The translations under genes and the position numbers were made by a program. Below, piece by piece: positions 9,385 through 57,897 of a DNA stretch of 64,000 nt. Source of the stretch: an uncultured Sangeribacter sp. (GTDB lineage Bacteria > Bacteroidota > Bacteroidia > Bacteroidales > Muribaculaceae). The notes under the pieces are model-generated. The model was given only the letters and a program-made list of their open reading frames with translations, searched no databases and had not been told where the DNA came from. The stretch covers positions 14,487 through 78,486 of the forward strand of contig CAZGEX010000007.1 in assembly GCA_964524385.1 (NCBI GenBank). The letters are read 5' to 3'. Numbering within the stretch: position 1 is the first letter of the stretch; every line of letters starts with the position of its first letter.

Positions 9385-10713
9385 TTATTTTAAGTTTTTT
9401 ATTCCAAATGCATCTTTCACCTTATCTACATAATCCAATTTCTCCCAAGCGAAAAGCTCTACCTCTATTGTTTTATCTGCCTCGTAACGGGAGCGGAATG
9501 TTTTAGTTATCACTTTCGGGGTTCGTCCCATATGTCCGTAAGCGGCAGTTTCTCTGTAGATTGGAGTCCTTAGATTGAAACGTCGTTCTATTGCAAACGG
9601 ACGCATATCGAAAATTTTACTTACTTTTTGAGCTATTTCTGCATCTGTCATATTTACTTTTGCTTTGCCATAAGTATTTACGCATAGGCTGACCGGCTCT
9701 GCCACACCAATCGCGTATGCAACTTGCACAAGCACTTCATCGGCAACACCCGCTGCCACAAGATTTTTCGCCACGTGACGTGCCGCGTAGGCTGCAGAAC
9801 GGTCCACTTTAGATGGGTCTTTGCCGGAAAATGCTCCACCTCCATGGGCTCCACGACCACCGTATGTATCCACTATAATTTTTCTTCCTGTCAATCCTGT
9901 ATCTCCATGAGGACCACCTATCACAAATTTACCGGTCGGATTTACATGTAATATCAGTTTGTCATCAAATAAGGATTTGATTTTTTTCGGCATCTTTGCT
10001 ATTACTCTTGGTAATAGTACTTTCTGAACATCTTCTCTGATTTTGTTCAACATTGCTTCATCTGCCGCTAATTGTGCTTCTCTACTATCGCCAATCGGAG
10101 CTACAAACTCATCATGCTGCGTAGAAACGACAATTGTATGAATTCTTTGAGGCACACCGTTTTCTGAATATTCCACTGTAACTTGGCTTTTGGAATCCGG
10201 GCGAAGATATGTAGCCAATTTGCCTTTACGTTCATACACCATTTCTTTTCCTTCTCTACGTATCGCAGCCAATTCTTTTAATAACACGTGCGACAATTCA
10301 AGTGTCAACGGCATATAATTTTCAGTCTCGGCTGTGGCATAACCAAACATCATACCTTGGTCGCCTGCACCTTGCAACTCTGCAGACTCACGTTCTACCC
10401 CACGATTAATATCATCGCTTTGTTCATGAACAGCTGAAAGCACACCGCAAGCATCGCCATCAAACATATAAGCACCTCTGTTATAGCCTATTTTATTGAT
10501 AACGTCCCTTGCCACTGTCTGCAAATCTACATAAGAATTGCTTTTCACTTCGCCTGCAATTACCACTTGTCCTGTGGTACACAGCGTTTCAATTGCCACT
10601 TTTGATTGCGGATCGTGTGCAAGAAATTCATCAAGCAACGCATCGCTGATTTGGTCGGCCACTTTATCCGGATGTCCTTCCGATACCGACTCTGATGTAA
10701 ACAAATAATTCAT
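9385..10713 (-). CDS. metK: S-adenosylmethionine synthetase
   Basis: [18 protein letters not shown] start and GGGAFSGKD motif. I place the start at the internal ATG 10713, which matches the canonical MetK N-terminus, not the ORF-track start at 10749. Confidence 0.95.
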
Positions 10714-10985
10714 CGTATATCTATAATTTATTTTACACAAAAAAAGCATTATCCTATAGCGGACAATGCCAAAACTCTATAATTTCATCCTAATAGGATA
10801 AAATTTTTATTGAGCAGTTTTAGCATTTTTTTCAGTGGTTGCAAGCAGCCAAATTTTTCCACTTCGTATATCCCTTCGGAAATTTGTTGCAAAGGTAGTA
10901 TTTTTTTTGCATTTAAACTCATTATTGGCATTATTTAACATTTACACCTATCTTTTTTATTCTCATTTTTATTATCTTTGCATTG

Positions 10986-11729
10986 ATGAAAGAAAAATTG
11001 AGAGGGATTGTCCTTGGCACCGTCAAACATTCCGACAAAAATAATATCGTAACAATTTATACTGCCGAATACGGACGAATGGCTTTCATTTCCAAATGTG
11101 GCAGTGGCACAAAAAGACATTCTCAAAATGCTCTTTTGATGCCGTTGTCTATTATTGAAATCAATACCTCTATTCACAAGAACAAAGACTTGCAACTGCT
11201 CGGACAGATCACACCATTGGCTGTCTATCGCGACATCTATTTCAATCCGATTAAAAATTGTATAGGCATATTTATTGCTGATTTCTTAAATCGAGTACTA
11301 AGAGACACTCCTCCGGACTCATTAATGTGGAAATATATAGCCGATTCATTATTATATTTCGATTTCACAAAAACAGGAATAGCCAATTTTCATATCGCTT
11401 TCATTTTCAGTCTTAGTTCATTCTTAGGCATACAACCCGACACTACCGGCTGGCAAGAAGGTTCCATATTTGATATGCAAGCCGGGAGATACACCACGTT
11501 ATCGCCTGTCCATTCCAACACAATCTGCGGAGAAGAAGCGAAAATGCTGTTAAAACTAAGTCGGATGAACTATGCAAATTCACATCTATTCAGATTTAAT
11601 CAAGAGATTCGCAATCGTATAATTGATCACATCTTACATTATTACGAACTACACATCCCCGGAGTAGCCGGTATGAAATCTACAGAAATTCTTCGCTCTC
11701 TATTTGATTTATCAACTCAAAACATCTAA
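10986..11729 (+). CDS. recO: DNA repair protein RecO
   Basis: About 247 aa. The N-terminal OB-fold region KLRGIVLGTVKHSDKNNIVTIYT is typical of Bacteroidetes RecO. The ORF-track start at 10983 is TTG; the ATG is at 10986. Confidence 0.85.
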   Translation: MKEKLRGIVLGTVKHSDKNNIVTIYTAEYGRMAFISKCGSGTKRHSQNALLMPLSIIEINTSIHKNKDLQLLGQITPLAVYRDIYFNPIKNCIGIFIADFLNRVLRDTPPDSLMWKYIADSLLYFDFTKTGIANFHIAFIFSLSSFLGIQPDTTGWQEGSIFDMQAGRYTTLSPVHSNTICGEEAKMLLKLSRMNYANSHLFRFNQEIRNRIIDHILHYYELHIPGVAGMKSTEILRSLFDLSTQNI

Positions 11730-11922
11730 ATCAGATACATAATTTATTTAAGCGAAATCACAAAAAACTTTAAATTCTGATTAAAATTTGGCAATTCAAT
11801 ATTTTTGAAGTAATTTTGTGGCGTAAAACATATTATGAAGGCGATAATCGCCCAAAAAGGGTCTTTCGAGGAGAAAAGATTCTTTTATTTTTTATTAATT
11901 TTAGAAAACACAATTATAAGTA

Positions 11923-12387
11923 ATGGCAACGTACCTAACACAAGAAGGTTACAACAAAAAGATGGAAGAATTGGCTGAATTGGAGGCACAGCGTCCTGCA
12001 ATTAAACTTGCCATAGCAGAAGCACGCGACAAAGGAGACTTGTCGGAAAATGCTGAATACGATGCAGCAAAAGAGGCACAAGGTATGCTCGAAATGAAAA
12101 TTGCTAAAATAAAAGAATTGATTGCTTCAGCACGTATCATTGACGACAGCAAGCTTAACACTGACGAAGTGCAATTACTAAATAAAGTCACTATCAAGAA
12201 CGTAGCTAACGGAATGACAATGAGCTACACCATAGTAACTGAAAACGAAGCAAATCTTCGCGAGCAAAAGATTGCTTCCAACACTCCTATTGCACAAGGT
12301 CTTTTAGGACACAAAGTCGGCGATATTGTCCAAGTAAAAGTCCCTGCAGGCACAATTAATTTTGAAATTCTTAAAATCGAAATTTAA
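11923..12387 (+). CDS. greA: Transcription elongation factor GreA
   Basis: 154 aa. Coiled-coil with DLSENAEYDAAKE and a C-terminal FKBP-like domain. Confidence 0.95.
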   Translation: MATYLTQEGYNKKMEELAELEAQRPAIKLAIAEARDKGDLSENAEYDAAKEAQGMLEMKIAKIKELIASARIIDDSKLNTDEVQLLNKVTIKNVANGMTMSYTIVTENEANLREQKIASNTPIAQGLLGHKVGDIVQVKVPAGTINFEILKIEI

Positions 12388-12399
12388 AACAATCTTATT

Positions 12400-12792
12400 A
12401 TGACTATTTTCAGCAAAATCATCAACGGCGAAATCCCATGCTACAAGATAGCTGAGAATGACAAATTTTTCGCTTTTCTTGACATCAACCCTGTCAATTG
12501 GGGACATACATTAGTTGTACCGAAACGCGAAGAGGACTATATTTTCGACCTCGAAGACGATGAATTGGCAGAAATGATGGTCTTTGCCAAACGTGTAGCA
12601 AAAGCTTTGAAAACCGCTATTCCTTGCAAAAAAATAGGCGTTACCGTTTTGGGTTTGGAAGTTCCCCATGCTCACATTCATCTTGTACCCTTGAAAGCTG
12701 AAGGGGATATGGATTTCAAGAACAAAATTTCTGACCCTGATTCGGAAAAGATGAAGCAAATAGCTTCTGCTGTCAGCGAATGTTTCGCCTGA
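12400..12792 (+). CDS. HIT (histidine triad) family protein
   Basis: 130 aa. HAHIHLVP histidine triad and FLDINPVNWGHTLVVPK. Confidence 0.9.
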   Translation: MTIFSKIINGEIPCYKIAENDKFFAFLDINPVNWGHTLVVPKREEDYIFDLEDDELAEMMVFAKRVAKALKTAIPCKKIGVTVLGLEVPHAHIHLVPLKAEGDMDFKNKISDPDSEKMKQIASAVSECFA

Positions 12793-12877
12793 AACAAGTA
12801 AATAGTAATTAATATCAATCTTGTCCGAATCTGTTTTCCTACGGAGACCGATTCGGATTTTTATCTTTATAAAACCA

Positions 12878-14056
12878 ATGGAAAACTTCATTTATTATTC
12901 TCCTACAGAATTTGTATTCGGCAAAAACACTCAATCTGAAACCGGCAAACTTGTCGCAAAATATGGTGGCAAACGAGTTTTAATTGTATATGGTGGAGGT
13001 TCGGTGGTCAAAAGCGGGCTACTTTCGACTGTCATTTCCTCGCTTGAGGAACAAAACATCTCATTTGTAGAGCTAAAAGGCATTAAGCCAAACCCAACAG
13101 ACGATCGCGTCTATGAAGGTATTGAATTAGCACGAAAGGAAAATGTCGATTTCATTTTGGCTGTCGGGGGTGGCTCGGTAATCGACACTGCTAAAGGGAT
13201 AGCTATCGGCACAGTCTATAACGGCGATTTTTGGGATTTCTATTCAAAAAAAGCCGTACCTCAAAAGTCATTACCAATAGGAGTTGTTCTTACTATTCCT
13301 GCAGCCGGCAGCGAAGGTAGTGGCAATTCAGTCATTACGAAAAAGGATGGACTTCACAAAATCAGTGTCCGCTACCCTATGATTTTACGCCCTCGCTTCG
13401 CAGTAATGAATCCGGAACTCACCTACACTTTACCATGGTTCCAAACTGCTTGTGGCATAGTAGATATGATTTGCCATATCCAAGAACGCTATTTTTCAAA
13501 CACCAAAGGAGCAAATTTGACCGATTCTATTGCTGAAACAATAATGCGTAATGTGATACAAAATGCTCGAATATTGAAAGATAATCCTAACGACTACGAT
13601 GCACGTGCAAATGTGATGTGGGCAGGCACACTCGCTCACAATGGTTTGTGTGGCAACGGCAAAGAAGAGGATTGGTCGTCTCACCGACTTGAACACGAAT
13701 TATCAGCCATCTACGACGTGGCTCATGGTGCAGGTCTTGCCGTTATGGTTCCGGCATGGATGAAATTCGTGGCTGCAAAAAATCCATGGAAGGTAAAAGA
13801 ATTCGCGACCAACATAATGGGAATTAGCACAGAAGGAAAAACCGATGAGCAAATCATAGCTGAAGGCATTGAAGCTCTCAAATCGTTCTATCACGAACTC
13901 GGTTTGACAACTTCTATCCGTGAGCTTACCGGAGTAGCCGAACCCGACATCGAAGCTTTAGTGAAATCTCTTAACGGAAATATGGGCGACACACTCGGTT
14001 TTTATGTGCCTTTAAGCATGGACGATTGTGCCGAAATCTATCGTTCAGCCCTCTAA
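12878..14056 (+). CDS. Iron-containing (group III) alcohol dehydrogenase, butanol-dehydrogenase-like
   Basis: GGGSVIDTAKG NAD motif and HGAGLA metal-site region. ATG at 12878 (MENFIYYSPTEFVFG) is preferred over the TTG at 12821. Confidence 0.9.
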   Translation: MENFIYYSPTEFVFGKNTQSETGKLVAKYGGKRVLIVYGGGSVVKSGLLSTVISSLEEQNISFVELKGIKPNPTDDRVYEGIELARKENVDFILAVGGGSVIDTAKGIAIGTVYNGDFWDFYSKKAVPQKSLPIGVVLTIPAAGSEGSGNSVITKKDGLHKISVRYPMILRPRFAVMNPELTYTLPWFQTACGIVDMICHIQERYFSNTKGANLTDSIAETIMRNVIQNARILKDNPNDYDARANVMWAGTLAHNGLCGNGKEEDWSSHRLEHELSAIYDVAHGAGLAVMVPAWMKFVAAKNPWKVKEFATNIMGISTEGKTDEQIIAEGIEALKSFYHELGLTTSIRELTGVAEPDIEALVKSLNGNMGDTLGFYVPLSMDDCAEIYRSAL

Positions 14057-14080
14057 CACCACTATTCTCAAATATAATAG

Positions 14081-14110
14081 AGCGGAGTATAGTTAACACT
14101 ATATTCTGCT
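14081..14110 (+). terminator. Hairpin downstream of the alcohol dehydrogenase gene
   Basis: agcggagtatagt/actatattctgct 13-bp stem with two G-U pairs, so it forms only in plus-strand RNA, and a TAAC loop. It starts 25 nt after the stop. The following T-tract is weak (ctcttt). Confidence 0.5.
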
Positions 14111-14328
14111 CTTTAAATTAATACACATAATTGTTTGGTTATAAATTTAGTTTTTGCTACCTTTGTCGGCGGATCGGAGTAATTCCGTCCGCAATTTTTT
14201 TGATTTATCGAAGCGTTATGTCTTCTTGTATGTGAAAAACGTAGGAAACTTAATCGCAATGAGTACAAGAGACGGCTTAACTGTTTTCACACATATCGGC
14301 GTGGGGACTGTTATTTCCACATCTGTAC
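14081..14328 (+). repeat. Direct repeat A, copy 1 (248 bp), left flank of AAA ATPase gene 1
   Basis: Hand alignment to 15855-16106 gives 9 substitutions plus two indels (1 and 3 nt). Contains the hairpin above, a TACCTTTG -7 box (14158-14165) and a second hairpin plus T7 run (14169-14201). Confidence 0.9.
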
Positions 14329-14497
14329 ATAGTAGTTTTCTTCGCATGATGGATTCTCCGCAATATTATCTGACTACAGCTTTCTTAAAAGCTCTCTCAA
14401 ACCCAACCTCAGCTCTTAGTATTACCGCATTAACATATTTTAAGATAGTTATGGGAATAAACTGGCATAAAAACTTGCCAATATGGGAATGAATCGA

Positions 14498-14505
14498 TAA
14501 CTTTG
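14498..14505 (+). promoter_or_regulatory. Candidate -7 promoter box (TAACTTTG) for AAA ATPase gene 1
   Basis: Exact TAnnTTTG match 44 nt upstream of the ATG at 14549. Confidence 0.4.
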
Positions 14506-14548
14506 CACCTGTAACAATATAATTGCAACTCACAAAAGCTCTTTCATT

Positions 14549-15820
14549 ATGACAATAGAACAATTCGTTCGCATAGTAGCAGAACAAAAGGAAGAACTGT
14601 TCAGTGAAGATTATTCACGCTTTTGTTCTCGTCCTGAGGAAATGCAACTTTCACTCACAAGTAATCTTGCACAAGTAGTGATAGGTGTTCGTCGATGTGG
14701 GAAATCCACTCTTTGCACAAAATTTCTTATGGATAAGAAACTGAAATGCGGATATGTAAGCCTTGATGATGAACGACTTGCAGAGGTCTCCGCAGAAAAT
14801 CTAAACAATCTTCTTGAGGCAATGTATATTGTGTACGGGACAGATATCGAGTACCTCTTTTTTGACGAGATACAAAATGCACAAGCATGGCCTTTGTTTG
14901 TCAACAGACTACTTCGCCAAAAGAAACATATATTTGTAACAGGGAGCAATAGCAAGCTTTTATCAAATGAGCTAATGACTCACCTTACAGGTCGCCACAA
15001 TGCAATTTCACTATATCCCTTTTCATATAGTGAATTTTGTAATATTAAAGGTATTGATATGAATGGCGTAACCACCAAGGCAGAAGCAAGGCGAATAGAG
15101 TATTTACATAAATACCTTAATCAAGGAGGTATGCCGGAGCTTATGAACGAACAAAACAAGAGAAAATACATATCATCTCTTTTGAATACAATAGTGCGTA
15201 ATGATATTGCCAAACGCTTTAAGATTCAGAATGTAGACGCACTACATAAAATAGCAACCTACCTTGTAGATAATTATGGTCAAGAGTTTGTTGCAAAAAA
15301 AATAGGTGAATTATTTGACATCAGCCACAAAACAGCCGCCAACTATTTTCGCTATCTTAAAGAAGCATTTTTATTAATAGGTGTCCCTAAATTTTCTTTC
15401 AAGGCACAAGAACGTATAAGAAATGAGAAATGCTATGTTGTAGACCTTGCTTTTCCTCAAGAACATGACAATTGCTTTTCACTTGAGAATCTTGGCTGGA
15501 AATTGGAAAATGTAGTTTGCGTCGAATTGTTGAGACGTTATAAGAACCGGCAAGCAGATGTTTTCTACTATAAAGAAAAAACTTTTGAGTGTGATTTCGT
15601 TATCGCTGACGGTTCTCGAGTTCTTGAACTCATACAAGTCAGCTATGACATATCGTCACCCAAAACTCGCAAACGCGAAATAAACGGACTTCTTCGTGCC
15701 GCTAAAGCACTGCACTGCAACAATCTGACTCTTATAACATTCTCATCCTCCAAAGAAATAGAGGAAGCCGGATTTAGAATTAAGGTGAGTGGAGCTTCAG
15801 ATTGGCTGAAAAATAATTAG
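14549..15820 (+). CDS. AAA+ ATPase with DUF4143-type C-terminal wHTH / restriction-endonuclease-like region
   Basis: 423 aa. Walker A GVRRCGKST and Walker B LFFDEIQ. The C-terminal ENVVCVELL...ECDFVI...ELIQVSY matches the layout of the AAA_14/DUF4143 orphan ATPase family. Confidence 0.8.
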   Translation: MTIEQFVRIVAEQKEELFSEDYSRFCSRPEEMQLSLTSNLAQVVIGVRRCGKSTLCTKFLMDKKLKCGYVSLDDERLAEVSAENLNNLLEAMYIVYGTDIEYLFFDEIQNAQAWPLFVNRLLRQKKHIFVTGSNSKLLSNELMTHLTGRHNAISLYPFSYSEFCNIKGIDMNGVTTKAEARRIEYLHKYLNQGGMPELMNEQNKRKYISSLLNTIVRNDIAKRFKIQNVDALHKIATYLVDNYGQEFVAKKIGELFDISHKTAANYFRYLKEAFLLIGVPKFSFKAQERIRNEKCYVVDLAFPQEHDNCFSLENLGWKLENVVCVELLRRYKNRQADVFYYKEKTFECDFVIADGSRVLELIQVSYDISSPKTRKREINGLLRAAKALHCNNLTLITFSSSKEIEEAGFRIKVSGASDWLKNN

Positions 15821-15854
15821 CAAACAGAGAAGAATTTAATTTTAACAATTTATT

Positions 15855-16106
15855 AGCGGAGTATAGTTAACACTATATTCTGCTCTTTAAATTAATACAC
15901 GTTATTGTTTGGTTATAAATTTAGTTTTTGCTACCTTTGTCGGCGGATCGGAGTAATTCAGTCCGCAGATTTATTTGATTTATAGAAGCGTTATGTCTTC
16001 TTCTTGTATGTGAAAAGCGTAGGAAACTTAATCACAATGAGTACGAGAGACGGCTTAACTGTTTTCACGCATATCGGCGTGGGGACTGTTATTTCCACAT
16101 CTGTAC
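15855..16106 (+). repeat. Direct repeat A, copy 2 (252 bp), right flank of AAA ATPase gene 1
   Basis: See copy 1. In this copy the second hairpin is weakened (attcagtcc) and the T-run is interrupted (gatttatttg). Confidence 0.9.
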
Positions 16107-16214
16107 TCAAAGGTATTCCTACCACCTTCACATTAAGACGTGGCATTCAGCTCCACGCTTCTGTTTTTGTAATTTAAATTCCTTTCGGGAGTTGGTGGAA
16201 TTTCAAAATCAATT

Positions 16215-16766
16215 ATGAAAAGATTATTACTGTTTTTATCAGTGCTTGCCATTGCAATTTCATTGCACGCACAAAATGATGTAACAAAATTCATGGGAAT
16301 TCCGGTAGATGGAACTAAACAAGAAATGATACGCAAACTCAAAGCTAAAGGATTCACTCCGGCTGAATCATACGAAGGAGGAGATTTAAAAGGAGAATTT
16401 AATGGTAAAAATGTAACATTAACTTTGCAAACCGTAAACGATAAAGTATGGAGGGTTATTGTGTTATATCTTATGACTGATAACGAATCAACAATTATCT
16501 CCACATTCAACAATTTAATCTATCAATTTGAAAACAACAGCAACTATTTAGCCGAAGATAATGAAGAAATACCTTCAAACGAAGATATTTCTTACGAAAT
16601 TTCTGTAAGAAACAAACGTTATCAAGCATCTTTCTATCAATTAGGCACAACGGACTTATTCAATAGCCTTGTTTGGTTTACAATAGGTGATGGTATATAT
16701 GATAGATTTTGTCTTGTCATTTATTATGAAAACGGATTCAATGCAGCTAACGGACAAGATTTGTAG
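16215..16766 (+). CDS. Hypothetical secreted protein
   Basis: 183 aa. Signal peptide MKRLLLFLSVLAIAISLHAQ. No recognisable domain. Its last ~57 nt are duplicated at 18509-18573. Confidence 0.6.
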   Translation: MKRLLLFLSVLAIAISLHAQNDVTKFMGIPVDGTKQEMIRKLKAKGFTPAESYEGGDLKGEFNGKNVTLTLQTVNDKVWRVIVLYLMTDNESTIISTFNNLIYQFENNSNYLAEDNEEIPSNEDISYEISVRNKRYQASFYQLGTTDLFNSLVWFTIGDGIYDRFCLVIYYENGFNAANGQDL

Positions 16767-16773
16767 CATCAAT
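16709..16773 (+). repeat. Direct repeat B, copy 1 (65 bp; 3' end and stop of the secreted-protein gene)
   Basis: 62/65 identical to 18509-18573 by hand alignment. A few more nt on the left may align if one indel is allowed. Confidence 0.85.
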
Positions 16774-16797
16774 TCTCGACAATAACAATAAACGTAG

Positions 16798-16824
16798 GAG
16801 GGTGTCTCAAAACGAGGCATCCTC
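16798..16824 (+). terminator. Terminator hairpin of the secreted-protein gene (member of a repeated hairpin family)
   Basis: gagggtgtctc/gaggcatcctc 11-bp stem with two G-U pairs, so it is plus-strand specific. The same two arms recur inverted at 57898-57927. Confidence 0.6.
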
Positions 16825-16866
16825 TTGTAGTTATTGTAAGCACATAAAAAGGGGAGAATTTATAAA

Positions 16867-18282
16867 TTATACGAACAAATCATCTAACGTGACCTCGCTT
16901 TGGACGATGCCTGAGTGAGAGTTCTGTCGCACACCATATATTGTTACCATCGTCAAGAGAACAGCTTTACGTGTTTTTGTCGCGTCGATGAATGTAGCTT
17001 TCTTATTGCGAAGGCTCTTTTCATAATCTGCATCTATAGCATACTCAGATAAAGAGTATTTCATTTCGCACAAATTAATTACTTGATCATTGCGATCAAT
17101 AAGCATATCAATCTGCACTCCGCTACTATATTCGTCAGCTTCTTTCCTCCATGAATAGACATTGCTTAAAACGCCGGCAATGCCTAATCCGACTTTGATT
17201 TGTTGCGTATGAGCCATACACAAACGCTCGAATGCCAATCCACTCCATGCACGATGCATGGATGAATCGATAGATACCGACCAGAAATGCTCATCGTTAT
17301 TATGGTTTTGCTGAATAAACTTAAAGTAGAAAAGCGTATAGTTATCGATTAGCTGATATATTGCCTGCTTGCTTTTCTTGCCATACCCATTATATTTACG
17401 CACGAAACCACAATACTCCAATTCGTCAAGCACCTTGCTCAATGCACCATTGCTTTGCTGATTGGTTGCAGTCATAATCTCTTCACGCGTCATACCTGCC
17501 TTTTTCTTGCCTAATGCTGTTACAATATTTATATATTGTCCCGGTGATCTGAATAACGAGGCATAAAGTTGATTAAACTCGTTTGATAGTTTGCCATTTC
17601 TTGAAAAGAATATTTTGTCGATGTTTTGAGCAAGGCTCAATCCTTTTTCCAACAAGCTCCAATAAAATGGGATGCCTCCAAGCACCATATAGCACTCTGC
17701 TATCTGATAACGACTCATTTCAAGACCTTTGCTTTGTGCAAACATTTCACACTCTCGCAATGTAAATGGTTGCAAAGCAATCTGCCGGGTAACTCGATTG
17801 TGCAAACCTCCATGGTCGTTAATCACTTTATTGATAATCCATGATGTGGCTGAGCCACAAATTATCAATACGATATCCTTGCGAGCTGAAGCCCAACCAT
17901 TCCAAAAATGTTCAAAAGCAGATATGAAGTTGGAGCGAGATGTATCCATCCAAGGCAATTCATCAAGAAATACAACCTTCTTCTCATCAGTTGAGTTTCT
18001 TAAGAAAACAGAAAGCATACTAAATGCTTCTAACCACGATTTCGGTACAGGACAATCATCATAACCGGCATCTCGCAAAGAAACAGCAAAGCTAAAAAGT
18101 TGTTCTTTGGTGTTTCCTTTAGCCAAACCTGTATGCTGGAAAGTAAACTTATAGCCAAACGTTTCGCGAATAAGATATGTCTTACCAATGCGTCTGCGAC
18201 CATAGACAGCAATAAATTCTGAATACTCTGACTGCACTGCTGAAAGCAATATATTCTGCTCCTCTTTTCTTCCGATTATCAT
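16867..18282 (-). CDS. AAA+ ATPase, archaeal-ATPase/DUF234 type, with C-terminal PD-(D/E)xK-like motif
   Basis: Walker A GRRRIGKT and Walker B VVFLDELPW. C-terminal QIDMLID...INLCEMKYS (D...E-x-K). Start placed at ATG 18282 (MIIGRKEEQ) rather than 18378. Confidence 0.8.
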   Translation of the reverse strand: MIIGRKEEQNILLSAVQSEYSEFIAVYGRRRIGKTYLIRETFGYKFTFQHTGLAKGNTKEQLFSFAVSLRDAGYDDCPVPKSWLEAFSMLSVFLRNSTDEKKVVFLDELPWMDTSRSNFISAFEHFWNGWASARKDIVLIICGSATSWIINKVINDHGGLHNRVTRQIALQPFTLRECEMFAQSKGLEMSRYQIAECYMVLGGIPFYWSLLEKGLSLAQNIDKIFFSRNGKLSNEFNQLYASLFRSPGQYINIVTALGKKKAGMTREEIMTATNQQSNGALSKVLDELEYCGFVRKYNGYGKKSKQAIYQLIDNYTLFYFKFIQQNHNNDEHFWSVSIDSSMHRAWSGLAFERLCMAHTQQIKVGLGIAGVLSNVYSWRKEADEYSSGVQIDMLIDRNDQVINLCEMKYSLSEYAIDADYEKSLRNKKATFIDATKTRKAVLLTMVTIYGVRQNSHSGIVQSEVTLDDLFV

Positions 18283-18508
18283 GTTGTTGATGTTTTGTAT
18301 AGTGCAAATATAATAAGAAAAACTCGTATAATCTGCCAAATCGTATAAAAAACATGAGATTTGGCAAACTATACGCATTTACCGAACTGATTTTGGAGCA
18401 AAATTGACTATTGCGACAACTTTTGAGAAAAAAATTTTCCTGTTATTATTTTGGCTATACTTTCAATTATATTGTTATCCGGTAAAAATTAATGAGTTGG
18501 TAATAGTA

Positions 18509-18573
18509 TTGTCTTGTCATTTATTATGAAAACGGATTTAATGCAGCTAACAGACAGGATTTGTAGCATCAAT
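18509..18573 (+). repeat. Direct repeat B, copy 2 (orphan copy of the 3' end of gene 16215-16766)
   Basis: Encodes ...LVIYYENGFNAANRQDL-stop in frame, with no upstream gene body. It is followed by its own hairpin, ggacagcc...ggctgccc. Confidence 0.85.
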
Positions 18574-18661
18574 CTTTATAACGATAATAAAATAGGACAG
18601 CCTAAGAGAATCGGCTGCCCTATTTTCATCGCTGAAATATTCAGTTTTAATTATTTCTATC

Positions 18662-19051
18662 TTATTGGTTTTCGCGGAGATGCAAATTCCATAAATCCTG
18701 ATATGTTATCTCACGAAGCCCCGGTGGAATTTCTCTACCTATTTTTGCATACGATGCTTCGTATCTTTTCAGAATACCCGGTTTATCATCGTTATTAAAA
18801 TTATCGGCATAGTAGGATATTTGAGCCGCATTATAAAGATGCTTAAATAATTCTTTATTTAATGCTTCGTAACATTCATCGATTTTACCTGTCGCATACA
18901 AGTATCGAGGTGTATCTGTGATTAATGTCTCTTCTTTAGCGACAACTTGTTTCAACCTTTTAATATCGTTGGTTGCCACCCAAATTTTAAAGAATAGAAT
19001 AATCACTAAAATCGACCATACTATGCTCAATATCAATAATAGTACATTCAT
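18662..19051 (-). CDS. Hypothetical small membrane protein
   Basis: 129 aa. Single N-terminal TM (LLLILSIVWSILVIILFF). No recognisable domain. Confidence 0.5.
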   Translation of the reverse strand: MNVLLLILSIVWSILVIILFFKIWVATNDIKRLKQVVAKEETLITDTPRYLYATGKIDECYEALNKELFKHLYNAAQISYYADNFNNDDKPGILKRYEASYAKIGREIPPGLREITYQDLWNLHLRENQ

Positions 19052-19068
19052 CTTGAGTTGAGTTTAAA

Positions 19069-20121
19069 TTATCGAAGTACCAACATAGCATCACCATAAG
19101 CTCCAAAAGCATATTTTTCTTTGATAGCTACGTCGTAGGCATTAAGCACATGTTCGTAACCACCAAAAGCAGCTACCATCATCAACATTGTACTGAGTGG
19201 CATATGGAAGTTGCTGACCAACGCGTTGCAAACAGTAAAGTCGTAAGGAGGGAATATAAACTTGTTGGTCCATCCTTCATAGGTCATTATATGTCCATTC
19301 ATACACACAGCACTTGCAATTCCACGAAGTACGGATGTGCCGACTGCACACACTTTTGATTCGCGATCTTTTGCAGCATTCACGATGTCGACCAAATCGC
19401 TGTCAACTACCATTTCTTCGCTATCCATACGGTGTTTTGTGAGGTCTTCCACATCTATTTCACGATAATTTCCGCGACCCGAATGAAGAGTAAGGAATGC
19501 ACGTTCCACACCTTTAATTTCCATACGTTTGAGCAATTCCCGGCTGAAATGCATACCTGCAGCCGGAGCTACCACTGCCCCCTCTTTTTGTGCAAATATA
19601 CATTGATAGCGTTCTTCATCTTCCGGCTCCACCGGACGGGTTATATAGTCCGGGAGGGGAGTTTCTCCCAACGCATATAATGCACTTTTAAACTCATCAT
19701 GAGGACCATCGTATAAGAAACGCAATGTCCGTCCGCGAGAAGTAGTATTGTCGATTACTTCCGCTACCATAGAATCGTCATTTCCCAAATATAGTTTATT
19801 ACCAATTCTTATTTTACGAGCCGGTTCGACAAGCACATCCCAAAATTTATGTTCTTTATTCAACTCACGAAGCAAGAACACTTCGATGCGAGCTCCGGTC
19901 TTCTCTTTATTGCCATAAAGACGAGCCGGGAACACTTTTGTGTCATTGAATATCATCACATCGCCTTCGTCAAAGAATTGTAATATATCTTTAAAGACAA
20001 GGTGCTGAATATCACCTGTTTTGGCATCTAAGACCATTAAGCGACATTCATCTCTGTTTTTTGAGGGATGCTGAGCTATCAGTTCATCCGGAAGTTTGAA
20101 TTTGAATTGAGACAGTTTCAT
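19069..20121 (-). CDS. queA: S-adenosylmethionine:tRNA ribosyltransferase-isomerase
   Basis: 350 aa. [19 protein letters not shown] start and typical QueA sequence throughout. Confidence 0.95.
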
Positions 20122-20173
20122 GTGGCAATCCTTTTTATATTGTTGATATTATATACTTATAGTTATCTCTTTA

Positions 20174-20887
20174 TTATTTCTGCCAATCTTCAGGGAAAGT
20201 TAATTCGACCTCATCAATTAGTTTAAGAGCATCATTTATACTTAAACAATCTGAAATCGAAATTTCACCTACACTAATACGTTGCAACCCGACAAGATGA
20301 GCTCCGCTACCGAGAGCTTCTCCGATATCGCGTGCAAGAGCTCGAATATATGTACCCTTGCTACACACCACTCTGATTTTAATAATGGGCAAACTAAATT
20401 CGAGCAATTCTATTTCGCTAATCGACAAAGGTTTGGCTTTAAGCTCCACTTCTTTCCCTTTTCGAGCATACTTATAAGCACGACGTCCATCGATTTTTAC
20501 AGCTGAGAAAATCGGTGGCACTTGCATTATAGCTCCTTGAAAACGGGCAAGAGCTTCATTTGTCATATCCTCTGTAATATGTTCGTACGGATACGTATTA
20601 TCCACTTCTGTTTCGAGATCATAACTTGGCGTAGTCGCTCCTAATCTGACTTCTGCCACATATTCTTTCTCTCCACTTTGCAACTCTTCTATTTTGCGAG
20701 TGGCTCGTCCGGTGCATACTATCAACACTCCTGTTGCAAGAGGATCAAGCGTACCGGCATGACCTACCTTGAATTTTTTTACACCTAACCGTCTTTGAAT
20801 AGCTCCTCGCAGACGCTTTACCGCATCAAAGGAAGTCCACTTCAATGGCTTATCAATAGCTATTATTTCACCTGAAACAAAATCCAT
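20174..20887 (-). CDS. truB: tRNA pseudouridine(55) synthase
   Basis: IDKPLKWTSFD and GHAGTLDPLATGVL catalytic Asp motif. ATG at 20887; the ORF-track start at 20890 is GTG. Confidence 0.95.
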   Translation of the reverse strand: MDFVSGEIIAIDKPLKWTSFDAVKRLRGAIQRRLGVKKFKVGHAGTLDPLATGVLIVCTGRATRKIEELQSGEKEYVAEVRLGATTPSYDLETEVDNTYPYEHITEDMTNEALARFQGAIMQVPPIFSAVKIDGRRAYKYARKGKEVELKAKPLSISEIELLEFSLPIIKIRVVCSKGTYIRALARDIGEALGSGAHLVGLQRISVGEISISDCLSINDALKLIDEVELTFPEDWQK

Positions 20888-20909
20888 CACACTACATTAA
20901 TTTATTGCT

Positions 20910-21743
20910 TTACCATATTATGCAAATCACTCCGACAATCAGGCAATATAGAGCAAACCAAATCAACTTGCCTTTTTTTACAATATTTATCATCCATTTG
21001 CACGCTGCACATCCTACTAAAAATGAGGATATAAACCCTATTATTAGTGGTACTATACCGACAGTTTGACTTGCTAATTCCGAAGTTTCAGCACCTAACA
21101 TATCTTTTAAGTCCAACAACGCTTCACCTAATATTGGCAACACGACCATTAAGAATGAAAATGAAGCTACTTGACCACGTTTATCGCCAAGCAATATCCC
21201 TGTGGCAATGGTAGTTCCGGAACGACTTAATCCCGGCAAGACAGCTATCGCTTGCGAGCATCCTATTATAAATGCATCCCACCATGATATATCTCTACCT
21301 TTGTCGGCCGAAACCACTTGTTTGGTTTTACGGTCAAATCCTGAATAATAAGCAAATGAGAGCAACATCGCTGTCACGCAAAGACAAATTCCAACAGTAA
21401 ACAAACCATTTCCGAAGAATTGTTCTACGTAATCTTTGAAAAACACGCCAACAATCCCCACAGGCACACATGACAGCAATATTTTACACACATAGTAAAA
21501 ATCATTGTCACGTTTAAATGTAAAAAAGCTTTTACACAATTTACTGAACACTGGCCAAAGAATTACCAACGTACTACACACCGTCGCAGCATGAACTATC
21601 ACATCAAACTGCAATGTTTTATCGGCAGGCAAATCTAAGCCAAGTATCTCTCTACATATTTCCAAATGTCCGCTTGAGCTAATCGGCAAATATTCCGATA
21701 GACCTTGCACTATACCTAAAATCAATGCTTGTAACCAATCCAT
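20910..21743 (-). CDS. uppP: Undecaprenyl-diphosphate phosphatase
   Basis: 277 aa. GLSEYLPISSSGHL and PGLSRSG motifs, polytopic membrane protein. Confidence 0.95.
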   Translation of the reverse strand: MDWLQALILGIVQGLSEYLPISSSGHLEICREILGLDLPADKTLQFDVIVHAATVCSTLVILWPVFSKLCKSFFTFKRDNDFYYVCKILLSCVPVGIVGVFFKDYVEQFFGNGLFTVGICLCVTAMLLSFAYYSGFDRKTKQVVSADKGRDISWWDAFIIGCSQAIAVLPGLSRSGTTIATGILLGDKRGQVASFSFLMVVLPILGEALLDLKDMLGAETSELASQTVGIVPLIIGFISSFLVGCAACKWMINIVKKGKLIWFALYCLIVGVICIIW

Positions 21744-21759
21744 GAGATTTCAGTTAAAA

Positions 21760-22074
21760 TTAGTTTTTACTCTTCTTGGGAGTATAAATTATTGCAAAAG
21801 CCATTCCTAAAAAACCTAAAAACGCCAATGACGGCGCTACTACTGTGCGTAGCGAACTGAATATATCCGGATTGAATCCCTCTTCTACACTGCTACCTTT
21901 ACCGACCATAAGTACAAAACCTATTACAATCAATGCTACACAAACAAGCATTAATATAATATTTATTCGTGAAAATGGGCGACAATTTTGCTGTATAATA
22001 TTGTTTTCGCCTCCGGATTGTTGTGAAGTCGCTGTGGATGTTCCACCCGACTTGCTGTTGTTTGTTGTTGCCAT
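21760..22074 (-). CDS. DUF3098-like small membrane protein
   Basis: 104 aa with two TM segments. Sits in the conserved Bacteroidetes position between ftsX and uppP. Confidence 0.65.
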   Translation of the reverse strand: MATTNNSKSGGTSTATSQQSGGENNIIQQNCRPFSRINIILMLVCVALIVIGFVLMVGKGSSVEEGFNPDIFSSLRTVVAPSLAFLGFLGMAFAIIYTPKKSKN

Positions 22075-22085
22075 TCTATCTAAAG

Positions 22086-22964
22086 TTATCTAAACAATTC
22101 GTCGTATTTTTTTCTAAGATATTTATTCGTTGCCATCCAAGCCGCTATACCACATATCAGTGAAGATAGAAGGAATAAAGCGACAAATATAATTAACACA
22201 CTTTCCCAATTCAAATAGTCGGAAAAATCAGGTATTCCTGAATCACTGACGTAAAACACCACACCTGACAACAACACACATGCCACTGCCGATGAGATAA
22301 GCCCTGCCAAAAGATTATTTTTGATGAAAGGACGTCGAATAAATCCATTTGTTGCACCGACAAGCTGCATTGTGTGAATTGTAAATCGTTTGGCATAGAT
22401 TGTCAAATGCACGGTATTATTTATCAGTACAAACGAAATTATAATCAGTGCCAACGCAATTACACCCATAATAATACTCCACCATTCTATCGTGCTATTC
22501 ATCTTATTTACCATTTCAGAATCAGGCACCACCACTTCTGCCACTTCTTCAAACGAGGCTAATTCGCTTTTGATGACTGCAATACTATCCGGATGCGTAA
22601 AATCAGCTTTTAGAGTCAGACTGATTTCCGGCGACAATGGGTTGCAACCTGCTATTTCCATAAGATTATCCCCTGTCTGCTTTTCCCAATCAGCCAATGC
22701 ATCTTCTTTGCTTATGAAATTACTTGAATTAACATAGCGTTTTGATTGTAACTCTGTCAACAATGGCATTGCTTGTTCGTTTTCGACATTATCTGCCATT
22801 ATCAGACTGATTTCTATCTGCTGTTTTATTTGCTTGGTGGCATTAGAGGCACTGATTGAAATCATTGCAATTACACCCACTATTATCAATACTAAACTGA
22901 CACTTATGATTGTCGGCAAATGTGCTGTGAAATATGATATTTTAGCTTCCTTTGTTTCTTTCAT
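22086..22964 (-). CDS. ftsX: Cell division protein FtsX-like permease
   Basis: 292 aa. N-terminal TM, periplasmic domain and a C-terminal 3-TM FtsX module. Confidence 0.85.
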   Translation of the reverse strand: MKETKEAKISYFTAHLPTIISVSLVLIIVGVIAMISISASNATKQIKQQIEISLIMADNVENEQAMPLLTELQSKRYVNSSNFISKEDALADWEKQTGDNLMEIAGCNPLSPEISLTLKADFTHPDSIAVIKSELASFEEVAEVVVPDSEMVNKMNSTIEWWSIIMGVIALALIIISFVLINNTVHLTIYAKRFTIHTMQLVGATNGFIRRPFIKNNLLAGLISSAVACVLLSGVVFYVSDSGIPDFSDYLNWESVLIIFVALFLLSSLICGIAAWMATNKYLRKKYDELFR

Positions 22965-23137
22965 TTTGATATAGAGATGGCTTTAATTTGCAAAGTTAAT
23001 AAATCAACACCCCCATTGTCAAGTATTTAACGTAAAAAAAACAAATTTAACATTCAAAAAAGATGTCGAATATGAATTTCGACATCTTTTTTACGGTATT
23101 AAAATATTGTATGTTTAGACTTTTTACTGTCTGTCAA

Positions 23138-23734: not shown

Positions 23735-23746
23735 TTTTATATATTT

Positions 23747-24301: not shown

Positions 24302-24420
24302 TTAGCATAAAAAAATTTGGCACAAAATTAACGAATATTTTTTAAATTTCCAATCACATCCTCGCTCTTTTATTATTCTTTAGCTTTTTAGTTACTATTT
24401 CATACCTATAATTCTTTGAT

Positions 24421-24460
24421 AAAAAAACAGTGTCGCAAGTTTGTTGTAACCTTGCGACAC
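24421..24460 (-). terminator. Rho-independent terminator after the C69 dipeptidase gene
   Basis: gtgtcgcaag/cttgcgacac 10-bp perfect stem (24430-24439 / 24451-24460), followed on the minus strand by T7. Confidence 0.7.
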
Positions 24461-24518
24461 AATCATCTATGATGTAAAAAAAATTACAATTTTGATTTAA
24501 CAATCCGATTCCGACAGA

Positions 24519-57870: not shown

Positions 57871-57897
57871 GTACACTGCTTAAAGCCATAAAACAAA

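What the first reader, a model, noticed from the sequence alone, without database searches (positions are those of the whole stretch)
14081..18573. Two orphan AAA+ ATPase / nuclease-like genes, each bracketed by long direct duplications of the local sequence
ATPase 1 (14549-15820, DUF4143-type) lies between two copies of a ~250-bp segment (14081-14328 and 15855-16106; 9 substitutions plus 2 indels). ATPase 2 (16867-18282, DUF234/archaeal-ATPase type, opposite strand) lies between two copies of a 65-bp segment (16709-16773 and 18509-18573; 62/65 identical) that is the 3' end of the secreted-protein gene. The pattern reads as an ancestral adh - leader - secreted-protein gene - terminator locus into which two single-gene cassettes were inserted, each with duplication of tens to hundreds of bp of target. 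No transposase, integrase or inverted terminal repeats accompany them. Both proteins combine a P-loop with a C-terminal PD-(D/E)xK-like block. ATPase 2 has D...EMK. ATPase 1 has ECDFV...IQVS, where E-x-K would be expected. These families are patchily distributed and functionally unassigned. Their behaviour here hints at self-mobility or at recombination-driven shuffling of defence-like genes.
Basis: partly seen in the sequence, partly recalled or inferred. Interest (0 to 1): 0.7.

Follow-up and report, generated by a model that had tools for sequence, protein, structure and literature searches.

The report
Defence-candidate genes inserted with long target duplications
Two single-gene ATPase-nuclease cassettes from very common but untested "phage-defence candidate" families were each spliced into a housekeeping locus of a gut Bacteroidales bacterium, copying 65-250 bp of the target on both sides; a related strain still has the intact empty site, and about one in six related genes elsewhere shows the same footprint.

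Summary
Repeat A is 14081-14328 and 15855-16106, with 9 substitutions and 2 indels. Repeat B is 16709-16773 and 18509-18573, 62/65 identical.

Four contigs of a related strain (about 92-93% nt identity) read adh, one A, leader, secreted-protein gene, one B, orf129, queA, with neither ATPase.

Both copies of each repeat are equally distant from the empty allele and closer to each other. So each duplication arose in place when the cassette went in.

The genes belong to PADLOC candidate families PDC-S01 (AAA_14+DUF4143) and PDC-S27 (ATPase_2 plus a D...ExK block). Both are under strong purifying selection (dN/dS 0.03-0.06).

No recombinase and no terminal inverted repeats accompany them.

The footprint is general. 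In 958 tested ORFs, 12 of 74 PDC-S01-type genes are bracketed by direct repeats of 38-388 bp, against 6 of 871 other genes.

This matches "insertion with long target duplication", described for restriction-modification genes (Nobusato 2000; Furuta 2010). Its mechanism is still unknown.

Verdict: real, and a new member of a known kind. Self-mobility is possible but unproven.

The parts
12878..14056 (+). Fe-dependent alcohol dehydrogenase gene (adh), the left anchor of the target locus
   Evidence: Pfam Fe-ADH and ADH_Fe_C. The exact protein is found on Logan contigs L001 and L002. The greA-HIT-adh order is conserved in Muribaculaceae relatives.
14081..14328 (+). Repeat A, copy 1 (248 bp). It contains the adh terminator hairpin (14081-14112) and a copy of the secreted-protein gene promoter (TAnnTTTG-type box TACCTTTG at 14158-14165), which now points into cassette 1.
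   Evidence: Its left flank matches the left flank of the empty site.
14329..15854 (+). Insert X1 (1526 bp), absent from the empty-site strain. Its parts are: a non-conserved 5' segment (14329 to about 14425); a conserved cassette 5' region with two TATGGGAAT boxes 32 nt apart (14449-14458 and 14481-14490) and a promoter box TAACTTTG (14498-14505); the ATPase 1 CDS; and 34 nt of 3' tail.
   Evidence: Empty-site alignment. There are no terminal inverted repeats.
14549..15820 (+). ATPase 1 (423 aa): an AAA_14 ATPase, a helical/winged-helix middle part and a DUF4143 (PD-(D/E)xK-superfamily) C-terminal domain. It belongs to PADLOC candidate family PDC-S01.
   Evidence: Pfam 1.5e-32 and 7.6e-21. 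PADLOC PDLC04787 at 1.4e-99 over the full length. AlphaFold model with pLDDT 81, with AAA+/STAND top fold hits. dN/dS is 0.03-0.06.
15855..16106 (+). Repeat A, copy 2 (252 bp). Its hairpin sits 34 nt after the ATPase 1 stop codon, and its promoter copy (15932-15939) serves the secreted-protein gene.
   Evidence: Its right flank matches the right flank of the empty site.
16215..16766 (+). Gene for a 183-aa protein with a signal peptide ('sec183'). It is the target gene lying between the two insertions and is intact.
   Evidence: ORF. No Pfam or NCBIfam hit. A 93%-identical orthologue, P0121, sits in the empty-site strain.
16709..16773 (+). Repeat B, copy 1 (65 bp): the last 58 nt of sec183, including its stop codon, plus 7 nt downstream. 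Weaker similarity continues to about 16792.
16774..18508 (-). Insert X2 (1735 bp), absent from the empty-site strain. In gene orientation its parts are: a non-conserved 5' segment (18508-18381); a conserved 5' region with a palindrome (18380-18320); the ATPase 2 CDS; and a 93-nt 3' tail with a hairpin terminator (16794-16828), which now also follows sec183.
   Evidence: Empty-site alignment. The palindrome is I6. There are no terminal inverted repeats.
16867..18282 (-). ATPase 2 (471 aa): an ATPase_2/AAA_14 P-loop domain with a C-terminal block carrying invariant E352, D392 and E406-x-K408. It belongs to PADLOC candidate family PDC-S27.
   Evidence: Pfam. PADLOC PDLC04984 at 4.7e-213. Invariant columns in the 17-sequence alignment. 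dN/dS is 0.04.
18509..18573 (+). Repeat B, copy 2 (65 bp): a detached fragment of the 3' end of sec183. It is followed by the original hairpin terminator (about 18596-18622) shared with the convergent orf129.
   Evidence: The junction is independently assembled in L189 and L190.
18662..19051 (-). orf129 (129 aa, unknown function), the right anchor of the target locus. It is followed by queA, truB and uppP.

Best explanation
Two independent, horizontally acquired single-gene cassettes were inserted at the two ends of a small secreted-protein gene. One is a PDC-S01-type gene (AAA_14+DUF4143). The other is a PDC-S27-type gene (ATPase_2 plus a D...ExK block). Each carries its own promoter and operator. 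The route is the one known as 'insertion with long target duplication'. The incoming DNA is joined into the chromosome and the target stretch between the two joining points is copied onto both sides: 248/252 bp at site A and 65-79 bp at site B.

Shown: the insertions; the target origin of the repeats; the duplication arising in place; the absence of any element-encoded recombinase or terminal inverted repeats; the recurrence of the footprint in the gene family; and strong purifying selection on both genes.

Inferred: the enzymology. I think the most likely route is host repair or replication. Either two widely and variably staggered nicks are filled in, or replication switches template twice across a break, capturing a linear or excised cassette. 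Breakage by the cassette's own ATP-dependent nuclease may stimulate this.

Because each duplicated segment carries a terminator, a promoter or a gene end, the neighbours stay intact. adh keeps a terminator, sec183 keeps its promoter and its 3' end, and the cassette gains flanking expression signals. This would explain why such insertions survive.

The proteins themselves most likely act as nucleic-acid-targeting ATPase-nucleases, such as candidate anti-phage or anti-plasmid effectors. They are probably autoregulated through the boxes upstream of their genes.
For: Empty site. L174-L177 come from four SRA runs and are 92-93% nt identical to the window over 14 kb. They have adh, one A, leader, sec183, one B, orf129, queA, and no ATPases. 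The alignment blocks overlap by 199 bp at A and 79 bp at B.

Duplication in place. A1-to-empty is 8.1%, A2-to-empty is 7.6% and A1-to-A2 is 3.5%. Private changes number 4 (A1), 3 (A2) and 12 (empty). B shows the same pattern.

The junctions are seen in independent assemblies. There are no terminal inverted repeats and GC content is ordinary. All surrounding genes are housekeeping genes, collinear with the empty strain.

Mobility of the family. Homologues at 88-91% aa identity sit in unrelated housekeeping contexts. One of them (L088 and L089, two assemblies) is again bracketed by a 151-bp direct repeat at 92.7% identity.

Survey. 12 of 74 PDC-S01-type ORFs are bracketed, against 6 of 871 other ORFs (odds ratio 28, p=3e-10). 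In a matched control, 13 of 65 loci share an exact string of at least 16 nt between the upstream and downstream flanks, against 0 of about 388 mismatched pairs. There are 11 independent loci with unrelated repeat sequences. One PDC-S27 homologue (L087) also has a 40-bp repeat.

Selection: dN/dS is 0.03-0.06.

Precedent: Furuta et al. 2010, PMC2853133.
Against: Nothing here shows how the duplication is made. The donor sequences are unknown, so microhomology at the junctions could not be tested.

Only the two window insertions have a matching empty site. In the survey loci the repeats are inferred to be target duplications. At least the L157/L169 pair share a hairpin next to the cassette, which may be a multi-copy or element-borne repeat rather than a target duplication.

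About 80% of family members show no flanking repeat.

The inserts have rather discrete ends. The 5' end usually lies 130-245 nt before the ATG. The 3' end lies within 14 nt of the stop codon in 4 of 11 independent loci, and homology between copies stops exactly at the stop codon. Capture of random fragments does not predict this, and it leans towards an element-specific process.
Confidence: 0.8

Rival explanations
1. The cassettes are autonomous single-gene mobile elements. The AAA+ ATPase-PD-(D/E)xK protein binds the box array at the 5' end of its own cassette, makes widely spaced breaks in a target and catalyses or directs its own insertion. This produces long target duplications of variable length.
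For: The footprint is strongly enriched for this gene family. It also appears at another PD-(D/E)xK singleton, a DUF1016/YhcG gene in L033.

The inserts have fairly discrete ends. The 5' end lies about 130-245 nt upstream of the ATG. In L162, L163, L166 and L170 it coincides with the start of a box array with exact 32-nt period. The 3' end lies at or within 14 nt of the stop codon in L088, L156, L157 and L170.

Homology between copies ends exactly at the stop codon in both families. Two different cassettes landed 0.6 kb apart at similar relative age. The proteins combine an ATPase, a DNA-binding-like middle part and a nuclease-fold domain.
Against: The box arrays are at one end only. There are no conserved terminal sequences and no target consensus.

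The sequence between repeat and conserved core differs between related copies, at 97-138 nt.

Nearest homologues are saturated at synonymous sites (dS at least 0.8), so there is no sign of recent bursts. About 80% of copies have no repeats.

In the ATPase 1 clade the canonical ExK lysine position is not conserved. The motif reads E360-L-I-Q363-V.

There is no biochemical precedent. The same footprint in restriction-modification genes has never been shown to be self-catalysed.
Confidence: 0.15
2. Campbell-type integration. A circular molecule carrying the cassette plus a copy of A (or B) from a related strain recombined with the chromosomal A (or B) by a single homologous crossover. This leaves the homologous segment on both sides.
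For: A single crossover would give exactly this topology. The repeat copies are not identical (95%), as expected if one came from another strain. In k=31 assemblies the A-X1-A arrangement is a loop, which is also the signature of a circle.
Against: A1 and A2 are equidistant from the empty allele. They share 12 derived states and carry similar numbers of private changes, and B behaves the same way. Neither copy looks imported.

The model only moves an existing repeat-flanked cassette between alleles of one locus. It does not explain the first duplication or the 11 unrelated target repeats.
Confidence: 0.07
3. Assembly artefact. The chromosome has a single A (and B), and the cassette sequences come from a co-existing strain variant or a small circle that the assembler threaded into the locus.
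For: The window comes from a metagenome-type assembly. Short k-mer contigs break exactly at the ends of A.
Against: The two A copies differ at 11 sites spaced at most about 57 nt apart, so ordinary reads can phase them.

The orf129-B2-X2-ATPase 2 junction is contiguous at 100% identity in two independent Logan assemblies, because the B copies share no 31-mer.

The same architecture recurs at other loci and in other assemblies, for example L088 and L089.
Confidence: 0.04
4. Site-specific integration by a recombinase supplied in trans, as for an integrase of a conjugative or mobilisable element, with the repeats being att sites.
For: Bacteroidales carry many integrative elements. A PDC-S27 homologue sits in an island next to HTH_17 (excisionase-like) genes.
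Against: The repeats are target-derived and unrelated in sequence between loci. Their length ranges from 38 to 388 bp. There is no integrase within the collinear 18 kb. There is no shared core sequence at the junctions.
Confidence: 0.03

Closest known systems
Insertion with long target duplication of restriction-modification genes (Nobusato et al. 2000 Gene 259:99; Furuta, Abe & Kobayashi 2010 NAR, PMC2853133)
   Same: A nuclease-encoding defence-type gene unit is inserted without any transposase or integrase. It is flanked by direct repeats of tens to hundreds of bp (46-423 bp, about 90-100% identical in that study). The repeat is present once at the empty site of a related genome, varies in length and sequence between events, and often spans the start or stop of the neighbouring gene so that gene stays intact. 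All of this is seen here.
   Different: The cargo is not a restriction-modification system. It is a single AAA+ ATPase-PD-(D/E)xK gene with no methyltransferase. The host is Bacteroidales, which is absent from their list. Two different cassettes flank one small gene. In my sample the footprint is present in about 16-20% of one gene family. The cassettes show discrete ends and a periodic box array, which were not described for restriction-modification units.
PADLOC phage-defence candidates PDC-S01 and PDC-S27
   Same: Full-length HMM matches at 1.4e-99 and 4.7e-213. Both are described as an ATPase fused to a PD-(D/E)xK-superfamily domain, are very abundant, and lack experimental validation (PMC12988326; PMC13356809).
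   Different: Those surveys treat the families as defence-system counts. I found no description of their mode of insertion or of flanking target duplications.
Classical DNA transposons / insertion sequences
   Same: Insertion creates a direct duplication of target sequence.
   Different: Their target duplications are short and of fixed length (2-15 bp), and they have terminal inverted repeats and a transposase. Here the duplications are 38-388 bp and variable, and there are no terminal inverted repeats and no transposase.
ATP-dependent nucleases that cut at a distance (McrBC-type Type IV restriction; STAND/AAA+ nuclease defence proteins)
   Same: An AAA+/STAND-like NTPase module is joined to a PD-(D/E)xK-type domain. 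Fold hits to the ATPase 1 model include Apaf-1 NB-ARC and the McrB AAA+ domain.
   Different: The hits have low TM-scores and cover only the ATPase part. There is no sequence-level membership, and no activity has been shown.

Membership tests
Insertion with long target duplication (criteria of Furuta et al. 2010) | The repeat flanking the insert is present once, with the same outer flanks, at an empty site in a related genome | tested here: met
   L174-L177 have one A and one B with the expected flanks.
Insertion with long target duplication (criteria of Furuta et al. 2010) | The target duplication is longer than 30 bp | tested here: met
   248/252 bp and 65 bp, the latter up to 79 bp.
Insertion with long target duplication (criteria of Furuta et al. 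2010) | The insert is shorter than 20 kb and has no other mobility genes | tested here: met
   The inserts are 1526 and 1735 bp, with one gene each. The flanks are collinear housekeeping genes.
Insertion with long target duplication (criteria of Furuta et al. 2010) | The insert carries restriction and modification gene homologues | tested here: not met
   Each insert encodes only an ATPase-nuclease-like protein, with no methyltransferase. The mode of insertion is the same but the cargo class is different.
PADLOC PDC-S01 | Full-length match to a PDC-S01 HMM, with AAA_14 + DUF4143 architecture | tested here: met
   PDLC04787 at 1.4e-99, residues 31-422. Pfam AAA_14 and DUF4143.
PADLOC PDC-S27 | Full-length match to a PDC-S27 HMM | tested here: met
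   PDLC04984 at 4.7e-213, residues 2-470.
Anti-phage defence system (functional sense) | Protects against phage or plasmid when expressed | not testable with these tools
   The literature states that validation of these candidates is pending.
   ATPase_2 matches at 1.2e-11, but there is no DUF234 hit on the whole protein or on the C-terminal 141 aa at E<=10.
PD-(D/E)xK nuclease superfamily (C-terminal domains) | Conserved acidic residues and an (D/E)xK motif on an alpha-beta-beta-beta-alpha-beta core | tested here: inconclusive
   ATPase 2 has invariant E352, D392 and E406-x-K408, and the predicted secondary structure fits, but the model is unreliable at pLDDT 37. ATPase 1 has a DUF4143 match and DUF4143 is listed in the superfamily, and its model has the right strand order. 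However, its ExK position reads E360-L-I...Q363.
Insertion sequence / DNA transposon | Terminal inverted repeats, a transposase, and a short fixed-length target duplication | tested here: not met
   The terminal inverted-repeat score is at or below the shuffle mean. There is no transposase. Duplications are 38-388 bp.
Integrase-mediated integrative element | An integrase gene and a constant att core shared by insertion sites | tested here: not met
   There is no integrase in the collinear region. Repeat sequences are unrelated between 11 loci.

The most novel reading that the evidence does not exclude
PDC-S01/PDC-S27-type AAA+ ATPase-PD-(D/E)xK genes would be the smallest autonomous DNA elements yet seen. 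A single protein would recognise the periodic box array at the 5' end of its own cassette and insert the cassette through widely staggered breaks. This would explain both their extreme abundance in 'defence' censuses and the unsolved mechanism of insertion with long target duplication.
Probability: 0.15. Interest if true: 0.9.

Novelty: new member of a known kind. Interest (0 to 1): 0.55.

Why it matters
PDC-S01 is reported as the fourth most common 'defence system' call in prokaryotes and the most frequent single locus in rumen genomes. Neither its function nor the way it spreads is known.

This locus gives a clean filled/empty pair for two such genes at once. The small survey suggests that the long-target-duplication footprint, described 25 years ago for restriction-modification genes and never explained, is common in this family.

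That provides many natural events, with discrete cassette ends, from which the mechanism could be worked out. It also raises the question of whether part of the abundance of these genes reflects selfish spread rather than defence.

The duplication of terminators, promoters and gene ends also shows how accessory genes can enter tightly packed housekeeping regions without harm.

Tried and rejected
- Rfam scan of 13.5-19.5 kb found no RNA family in repeat A, only chance-level hits.
- The GTDB species-representative scan with adh found no genome closer than 85% aa. None had sec183, A or B. It did show that the adh-to-queA junction is specific to this lineage.
- Exact-protein look-ups for sec183 and for both ATPase 2 start variants found nothing.
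- Viral-contig scans gave 0 hits for ATPase 1 and 3 for ATPase 2, so there is no phage link.
- The ATPase 2 structure prediction failed (pLDDT 37) because all available homologues are 87-93% identical, so no fold search was run on it.
- The fold search with the whole ATPase 1 model returned only AAA+/STAND hits at low TM-score and could not test the C-terminal domain alone.
- PDB sequence searches gave no hit.
- The literature search for 'DUF234' was swamped by DUF2345.
- I first thought the 87-93% identity of thousands of ATPase 2 homologues meant recent spread. I rejected this because synonymous sites are saturated (dS at least 0.86) with dN/dS of 0.04.
- I looked for short (12-16 nt) target duplications at family members lacking long repeats and found no clear excess.
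- I looked for a target-site or cassette-end consensus and for terminal inverted repeats and found none.
- I tried to resolve the nested repeats of L157 and could not.

Full report
**Observation**

A1 (14081-14328) and A2 (15855-16106) differ by 9 substitutions and two indels. B1 (16709-16773) and B2 (18509-18573) are 62/65 identical. The boundaries are sharp, and neither repeat occurs elsewhere in the 64-kb window.

A begins with the adh terminator hairpin and contains a Bacteroidetes-type promoter box (TACCTTTG, 14158-14165 in A1). B contains the last 58 nt of the 183-aa signal-peptide protein gene (sec183), including its stop codon, plus 7 nt downstream.

ATPase 1 is 14549-15820 (+). ATPase 2 is 16867-18282 (-), and the 471-aa form is the real one because all homologues are 471 aa.

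**What the genes are**

ATPase 1 is AAA_14 + DUF4143. It matches PADLOC candidate PDC-S01 over its full length (1.4e-99).

ATPase 2 matches Pfam ATPase_2/AAA_14 and PADLOC PDC-S27 (4.7e-213). It has no Pfam DUF234 hit, even when its C-terminal part is scanned alone at E<=10. Its C-terminal block has invariant E352, D392 and E406-x-K408.

DUF4143 and DUF234 are both listed in the PD-(D/E)xK superfamily (PMC3424549). A 2026 survey describes PDC-S01 and PDC-S27 as ATPase domains fused to PD-(D/E)xK-superfamily members. [quoted passage not shown]

The ATPase 1 model (pLDDT 81) has an AAA+/STAND-like N-terminal part. Its top fold hits are Apaf-1 NB-ARC and, further down, the McrB AAA+ domain. It also has a C-terminal alpha-beta-beta-beta-alpha-beta unit. 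The ATPase 2 model was unusable.

In the ATPase 1 clade the canonical lysine position is not conserved, reading E360-L-I-Q363-V. Nuclease activity there is therefore uncertain.

**The empty site**

The organism is an uncultured Muribaculaceae-like Bacteroidales bacterium with no close species representative (best adh match 85% aa).

A 93%-identical orthologue of sec183 (P0121) lies on four Logan contigs from runs SRR17049898 to SRR17049903 (L174-L177). Their gene order is recO, greA, HIT, adh, sec183, orf136(-), queA(-), truB, uppP, and onwards. This is the window's order without either ATPase.

L174 is 92-93% identical to the window over 14 kb. It aligns in three blocks:
- L174 1-3938 with window 10334-14328;
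- L174 3740-4623 with window 15904-16792;
- L174 4545-14598 with window 18513-28570.

The empty allele therefore has one A, with A1's left flank and A2's right flank. It has one B, with B1's left flank and B2's right flank. The inserts are X1 = 14329-15854 and X2 = 16774-18508.

Over the shared columns, A1 and A2 are 8.1% and 7.6% from the empty allele but 3.5% from each other. Private changes number 4 (A1), 3 (A2) and 12 (empty). B behaves the same way.

So each duplication arose in place in the window's lineage, at roughly half the age of the split between the two strains. Neither copy was imported.

**Is it an assembly artefact?**

Independent Logan assemblies of SRR14307657 and SRR14307658 match the window at 100% (99.9% for two of the six contigs).
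- L001 and L002 stop exactly 30 nt (k-1) into A.
- L083 and L084 consist of X1 plus 30 nt of A on each side.
- L189 and L190 run from orf129 through B2 and the 5' part of X2 into ATPase 2.

At k=31 the A region is a loop and could in principle be a circle plus a single A. However, the 11 differences between A1 and A2 are close enough together to be phased by ordinary reads. The B2 junction is unambiguous. I rate an artefact as unlikely.

**Anatomy of the cassettes**

Nucleotide homology between the window's cassettes and their relatives at other loci has the same limits in both families. It starts about 100-125 nt (ATPase 1) or 90-98 nt (ATPase 2) upstream of the ATG. It ends at or within a few nt of the stop codon.

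The conserved 5' region of ATPase 1 holds two TATGGGAAT boxes exactly 32 nt apart (14449 and 14481) and a TAnnTTTG-type promoter box (14498-14505). In other subfamilies the box sequence differs, but 2-4 copies recur at the same 32-nt period. The ATPase 2 5' region holds a 23-nt palindrome (18320-18342 / 18358-18380).

These look like operators, probably for autoregulation. That is an inference.

Between the conserved core and the target repeats lie non-conserved segments: 97-120 nt and 34 nt in X1, and 128 nt and 93 nt in X2. They match nothing else I fetched.

There are no terminal inverted repeats. GC content is ordinary. No recombinase gene lies within the collinear 18 kb.

As a result of the duplications, adh keeps a terminator and ATPase 1 sits behind a copy of the sec183 promoter and in front of a copy of the adh terminator. 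sec183 keeps its promoter and its complete 3' end. The X2 terminator (16794-16828) now follows sec183.

**Generality**

Homologues of ATPase 1 at 88-91% aa identity lie in unrelated housekeeping contexts: lpxA|MR_MLE, LRR|sufB, and next to a glucosamine-6-phosphate isomerase gene. The lpxA copy, seen in two assemblies (L088 and L089), is again bracketed by a 151-bp direct repeat at 92.7% identity.

I fetched 80 metagenome loci with family members at 48-62% identity. I then tested every ORF of at least 250 aa in all loci held at that point for a bracketing direct repeat of at least 35 bp and at least 80% identity, within 700 nt of each gene end.

Of 958 ORFs, 20 were bracketed:
- 12 of 74 PDC-S01-type genes;
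- 2 of 13 ATPase 2-type genes (the window copy and L087);
- 6 of 871 others.

For PDC-S01-type genes against the others the odds ratio is 28 and p=3e-10. The six others include an IS200-like Y1 transposase and a DUF1016/YhcG PD-(D/E)xK nuclease singleton.

In a matched control, 13 of 65 loci share an exact string of at least 16 nt between the upstream and downstream flanks, against 0 of about 388 mismatched flank pairs. There is no excess of shorter repeats.

The positives fall into 11 independent loci with unrelated repeat sequences, 38-388 bp long and 81-100% identical. The upstream repeat usually ends 130-245 nt before the ATG. The downstream repeat starts within 14 nt of the stop codon in 4 of the 11 independent loci.

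Caveats. Only the window's two insertions have an empty-site partner. L157 and L169 share a hairpin next to the cassette that may be a multi-copy or element-borne repeat. The control genes are mostly core genes, so part of the enrichment may reflect recent acquisition as such.

**Selection and age**

dN/dS is 0.03-0.06 for ATPase 1 and 0.04 for ATPase 2, similar to adh at 0.05. dS to the nearest homologues is 0.8 to saturated, against 0.28 for adh between the window and the empty strain.

The genes are therefore functional and strongly constrained. The uniform 87-93% identity of ATPase 2 homologues reflects constraint, not recent spread.

**How it most likely works**

Shown: two insertions of foreign single-gene cassettes, with duplication in place of 248/252 and 65-79 bp of target, and without element-encoded recombinase or inverted repeats.

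This is the pattern named 'insertion with long target duplication'. It was found for restriction-modification genes of types I-IV in Helicobacter, Haemophilus, Neisseria, Campylobacter and others. In that work the repeats are 46-423 bp, often span the start or stop of the neighbouring gene, and the mechanism is unknown, with double-strand breakage by the encoded enzyme suggested (PMC2853133).

My best guess is host repair or replication. One route is fill-in of two widely and variably staggered nicks. The other is two template switches at a broken fork that capture the cassette DNA. Either may be provoked by the cassette's own ATP-dependent nuclease. This is inferred.

The discrete cassette ends and the periodic boxes at the 5' end keep open a self-catalysed mechanism, which I rate at about 0.15. 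Campbell-type integration of a circle carrying a foreign copy of A is disfavoured, because A1 and A2 are equidistant from the empty allele. Site-specific recombination in trans is disfavoured by the unrelated, variable-length repeats.

**Novelty**

The gene families are catalogued and the insertion mode has a precedent. I found no report linking the two.

What is new:
- the cargo is a single ATPase-nuclease gene with no methyltransferase;
- the host clade is Bacteroidales;
- the footprint is frequent in one family;
- the cassette ends are defined and carry a 32-nt-period box array;
- this locus is a clean double filled/empty pair.

I rate it a new member of a known kind, with moderate interest. 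It would be high if the proteins turn out to drive their own insertion.

Noticed in passing
window 14449-14490; L163 5797-5878; L137 5850-5958; L166 1064-1177; L170 543-619; L157 5780-5856: Every PDC-S01-type gene examined has 2-4 copies of a 10-18-nt box at an exact 32-nt period just upstream of its promoter. The box sequence differs between subfamilies (TATGGGAAT, TGCATTTTAGCGTGATAG, CTGCATTCTATCG, TTTTATCGTATTT) and the copy number varies. In L162, L163, L166 and L170 the array starts right where the flanking repeat ends. It is probably an operator for the protein's own DNA-binding part, but it could mark the cassette end.
   Followed up: partly
window 14512-14525 (+) and 18464-18477 (-): The 14-mer TAACAATATAATTG occurs only twice in the 64-kb window (0.09 expected even with one mismatch allowed). 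Both copies lie in the 5' regions of the two unrelated cassettes, each in gene orientation and each about 6-7 nt after a TAnnTTTG-like box. In cassette 2 it lies in the non-conserved outer segment.
   Followed up: partly
window 14070-14128 versus L174 about 3730-3740: The adh terminator hairpin (AGCGGAGTATAGTTAACACTATATTCTGCT plus about 25 nt) is a roughly 57-nt indel. It is present in both A1 and A2 but absent from the empty-site strain, so it entered or was lost independently of, and before, the duplication.
   Followed up: partly
window 9385-23000 versus L005, L006, L012, L027, L044: In other Muribaculaceae the block ftsX-uppP-truB-queA lies upstream of greA-HIT-adh on the same strand. Here, and in the empty-site strain, it lies downstream of adh and is inverted, and recO precedes greA. 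The interval between adh and queA is therefore a lineage-specific rearrangement junction that later received two insertions.
   Followed up: partly
L033 13276-14572; L026 13878-15267: A DUF1016/YhcG PD-(D/E)xK nuclease singleton is bracketed by a 40-bp direct repeat (97.5% identity). An IS200-like Y1 transposase gene is bracketed by a 67-bp repeat. The first suggests that the long-repeat footprint may extend to other nuclease-fold singletons.
   Followed up: no
L178-L187 (protein P0274): One identical PDC-S27 protein is recorded in 37 collection blocks. It sits in a defence-island-like setting (AbiJ, AbiEii, HipA, a metallo-beta-lactamase-fold protein with a faint Apyc1-like Pfam hit, DUF6922) with at least two different upstream neighbourhoods, and has no flanking repeats.
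   Followed up: partly
L047 13652-14908 (-): Another Muribaculaceae genome carries a 60%-identical PDC-S01 gene about 2.5 kb downstream of its adh, on the opposite strand and without detected flanking repeats. This may be a recurrent insertion neighbourhood or a coincidence.
   Followed up: no
L157 4956-8499: There are nested repeats around a PDC-S01 gene: three copies of a roughly 200-bp segment, two copies of a 160-bp segment and three copies of a hairpin-plus-GTGCCGTTTTCCGTACCTTT motif. This suggests repeated insertions or amplification at one site. I could not resolve the history.
   Followed up: partly
window 16797-16826 and 57896-57925; also 57831-57866: The terminator hairpin in the 3' tail of cassette 2 (GGAGGGTGTCTC...GAGGCATCCTC) resembles, at 93% over 30 nt, a hairpin elsewhere in the window. 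GAGGGTG...CACCCTC-type hairpins seem to be a recurrent terminator type in this genome.
   Followed up: no
window 34600-35115 and 54435-54628: There are two coding low-complexity repeat tracts. One has 21/24-nt units encoding (N)RQGGYNN-like repeats inside the 492-aa ORF 34438-35916. The other has 12/15-nt units further downstream. Neither is related to the finding.
   Followed up: no
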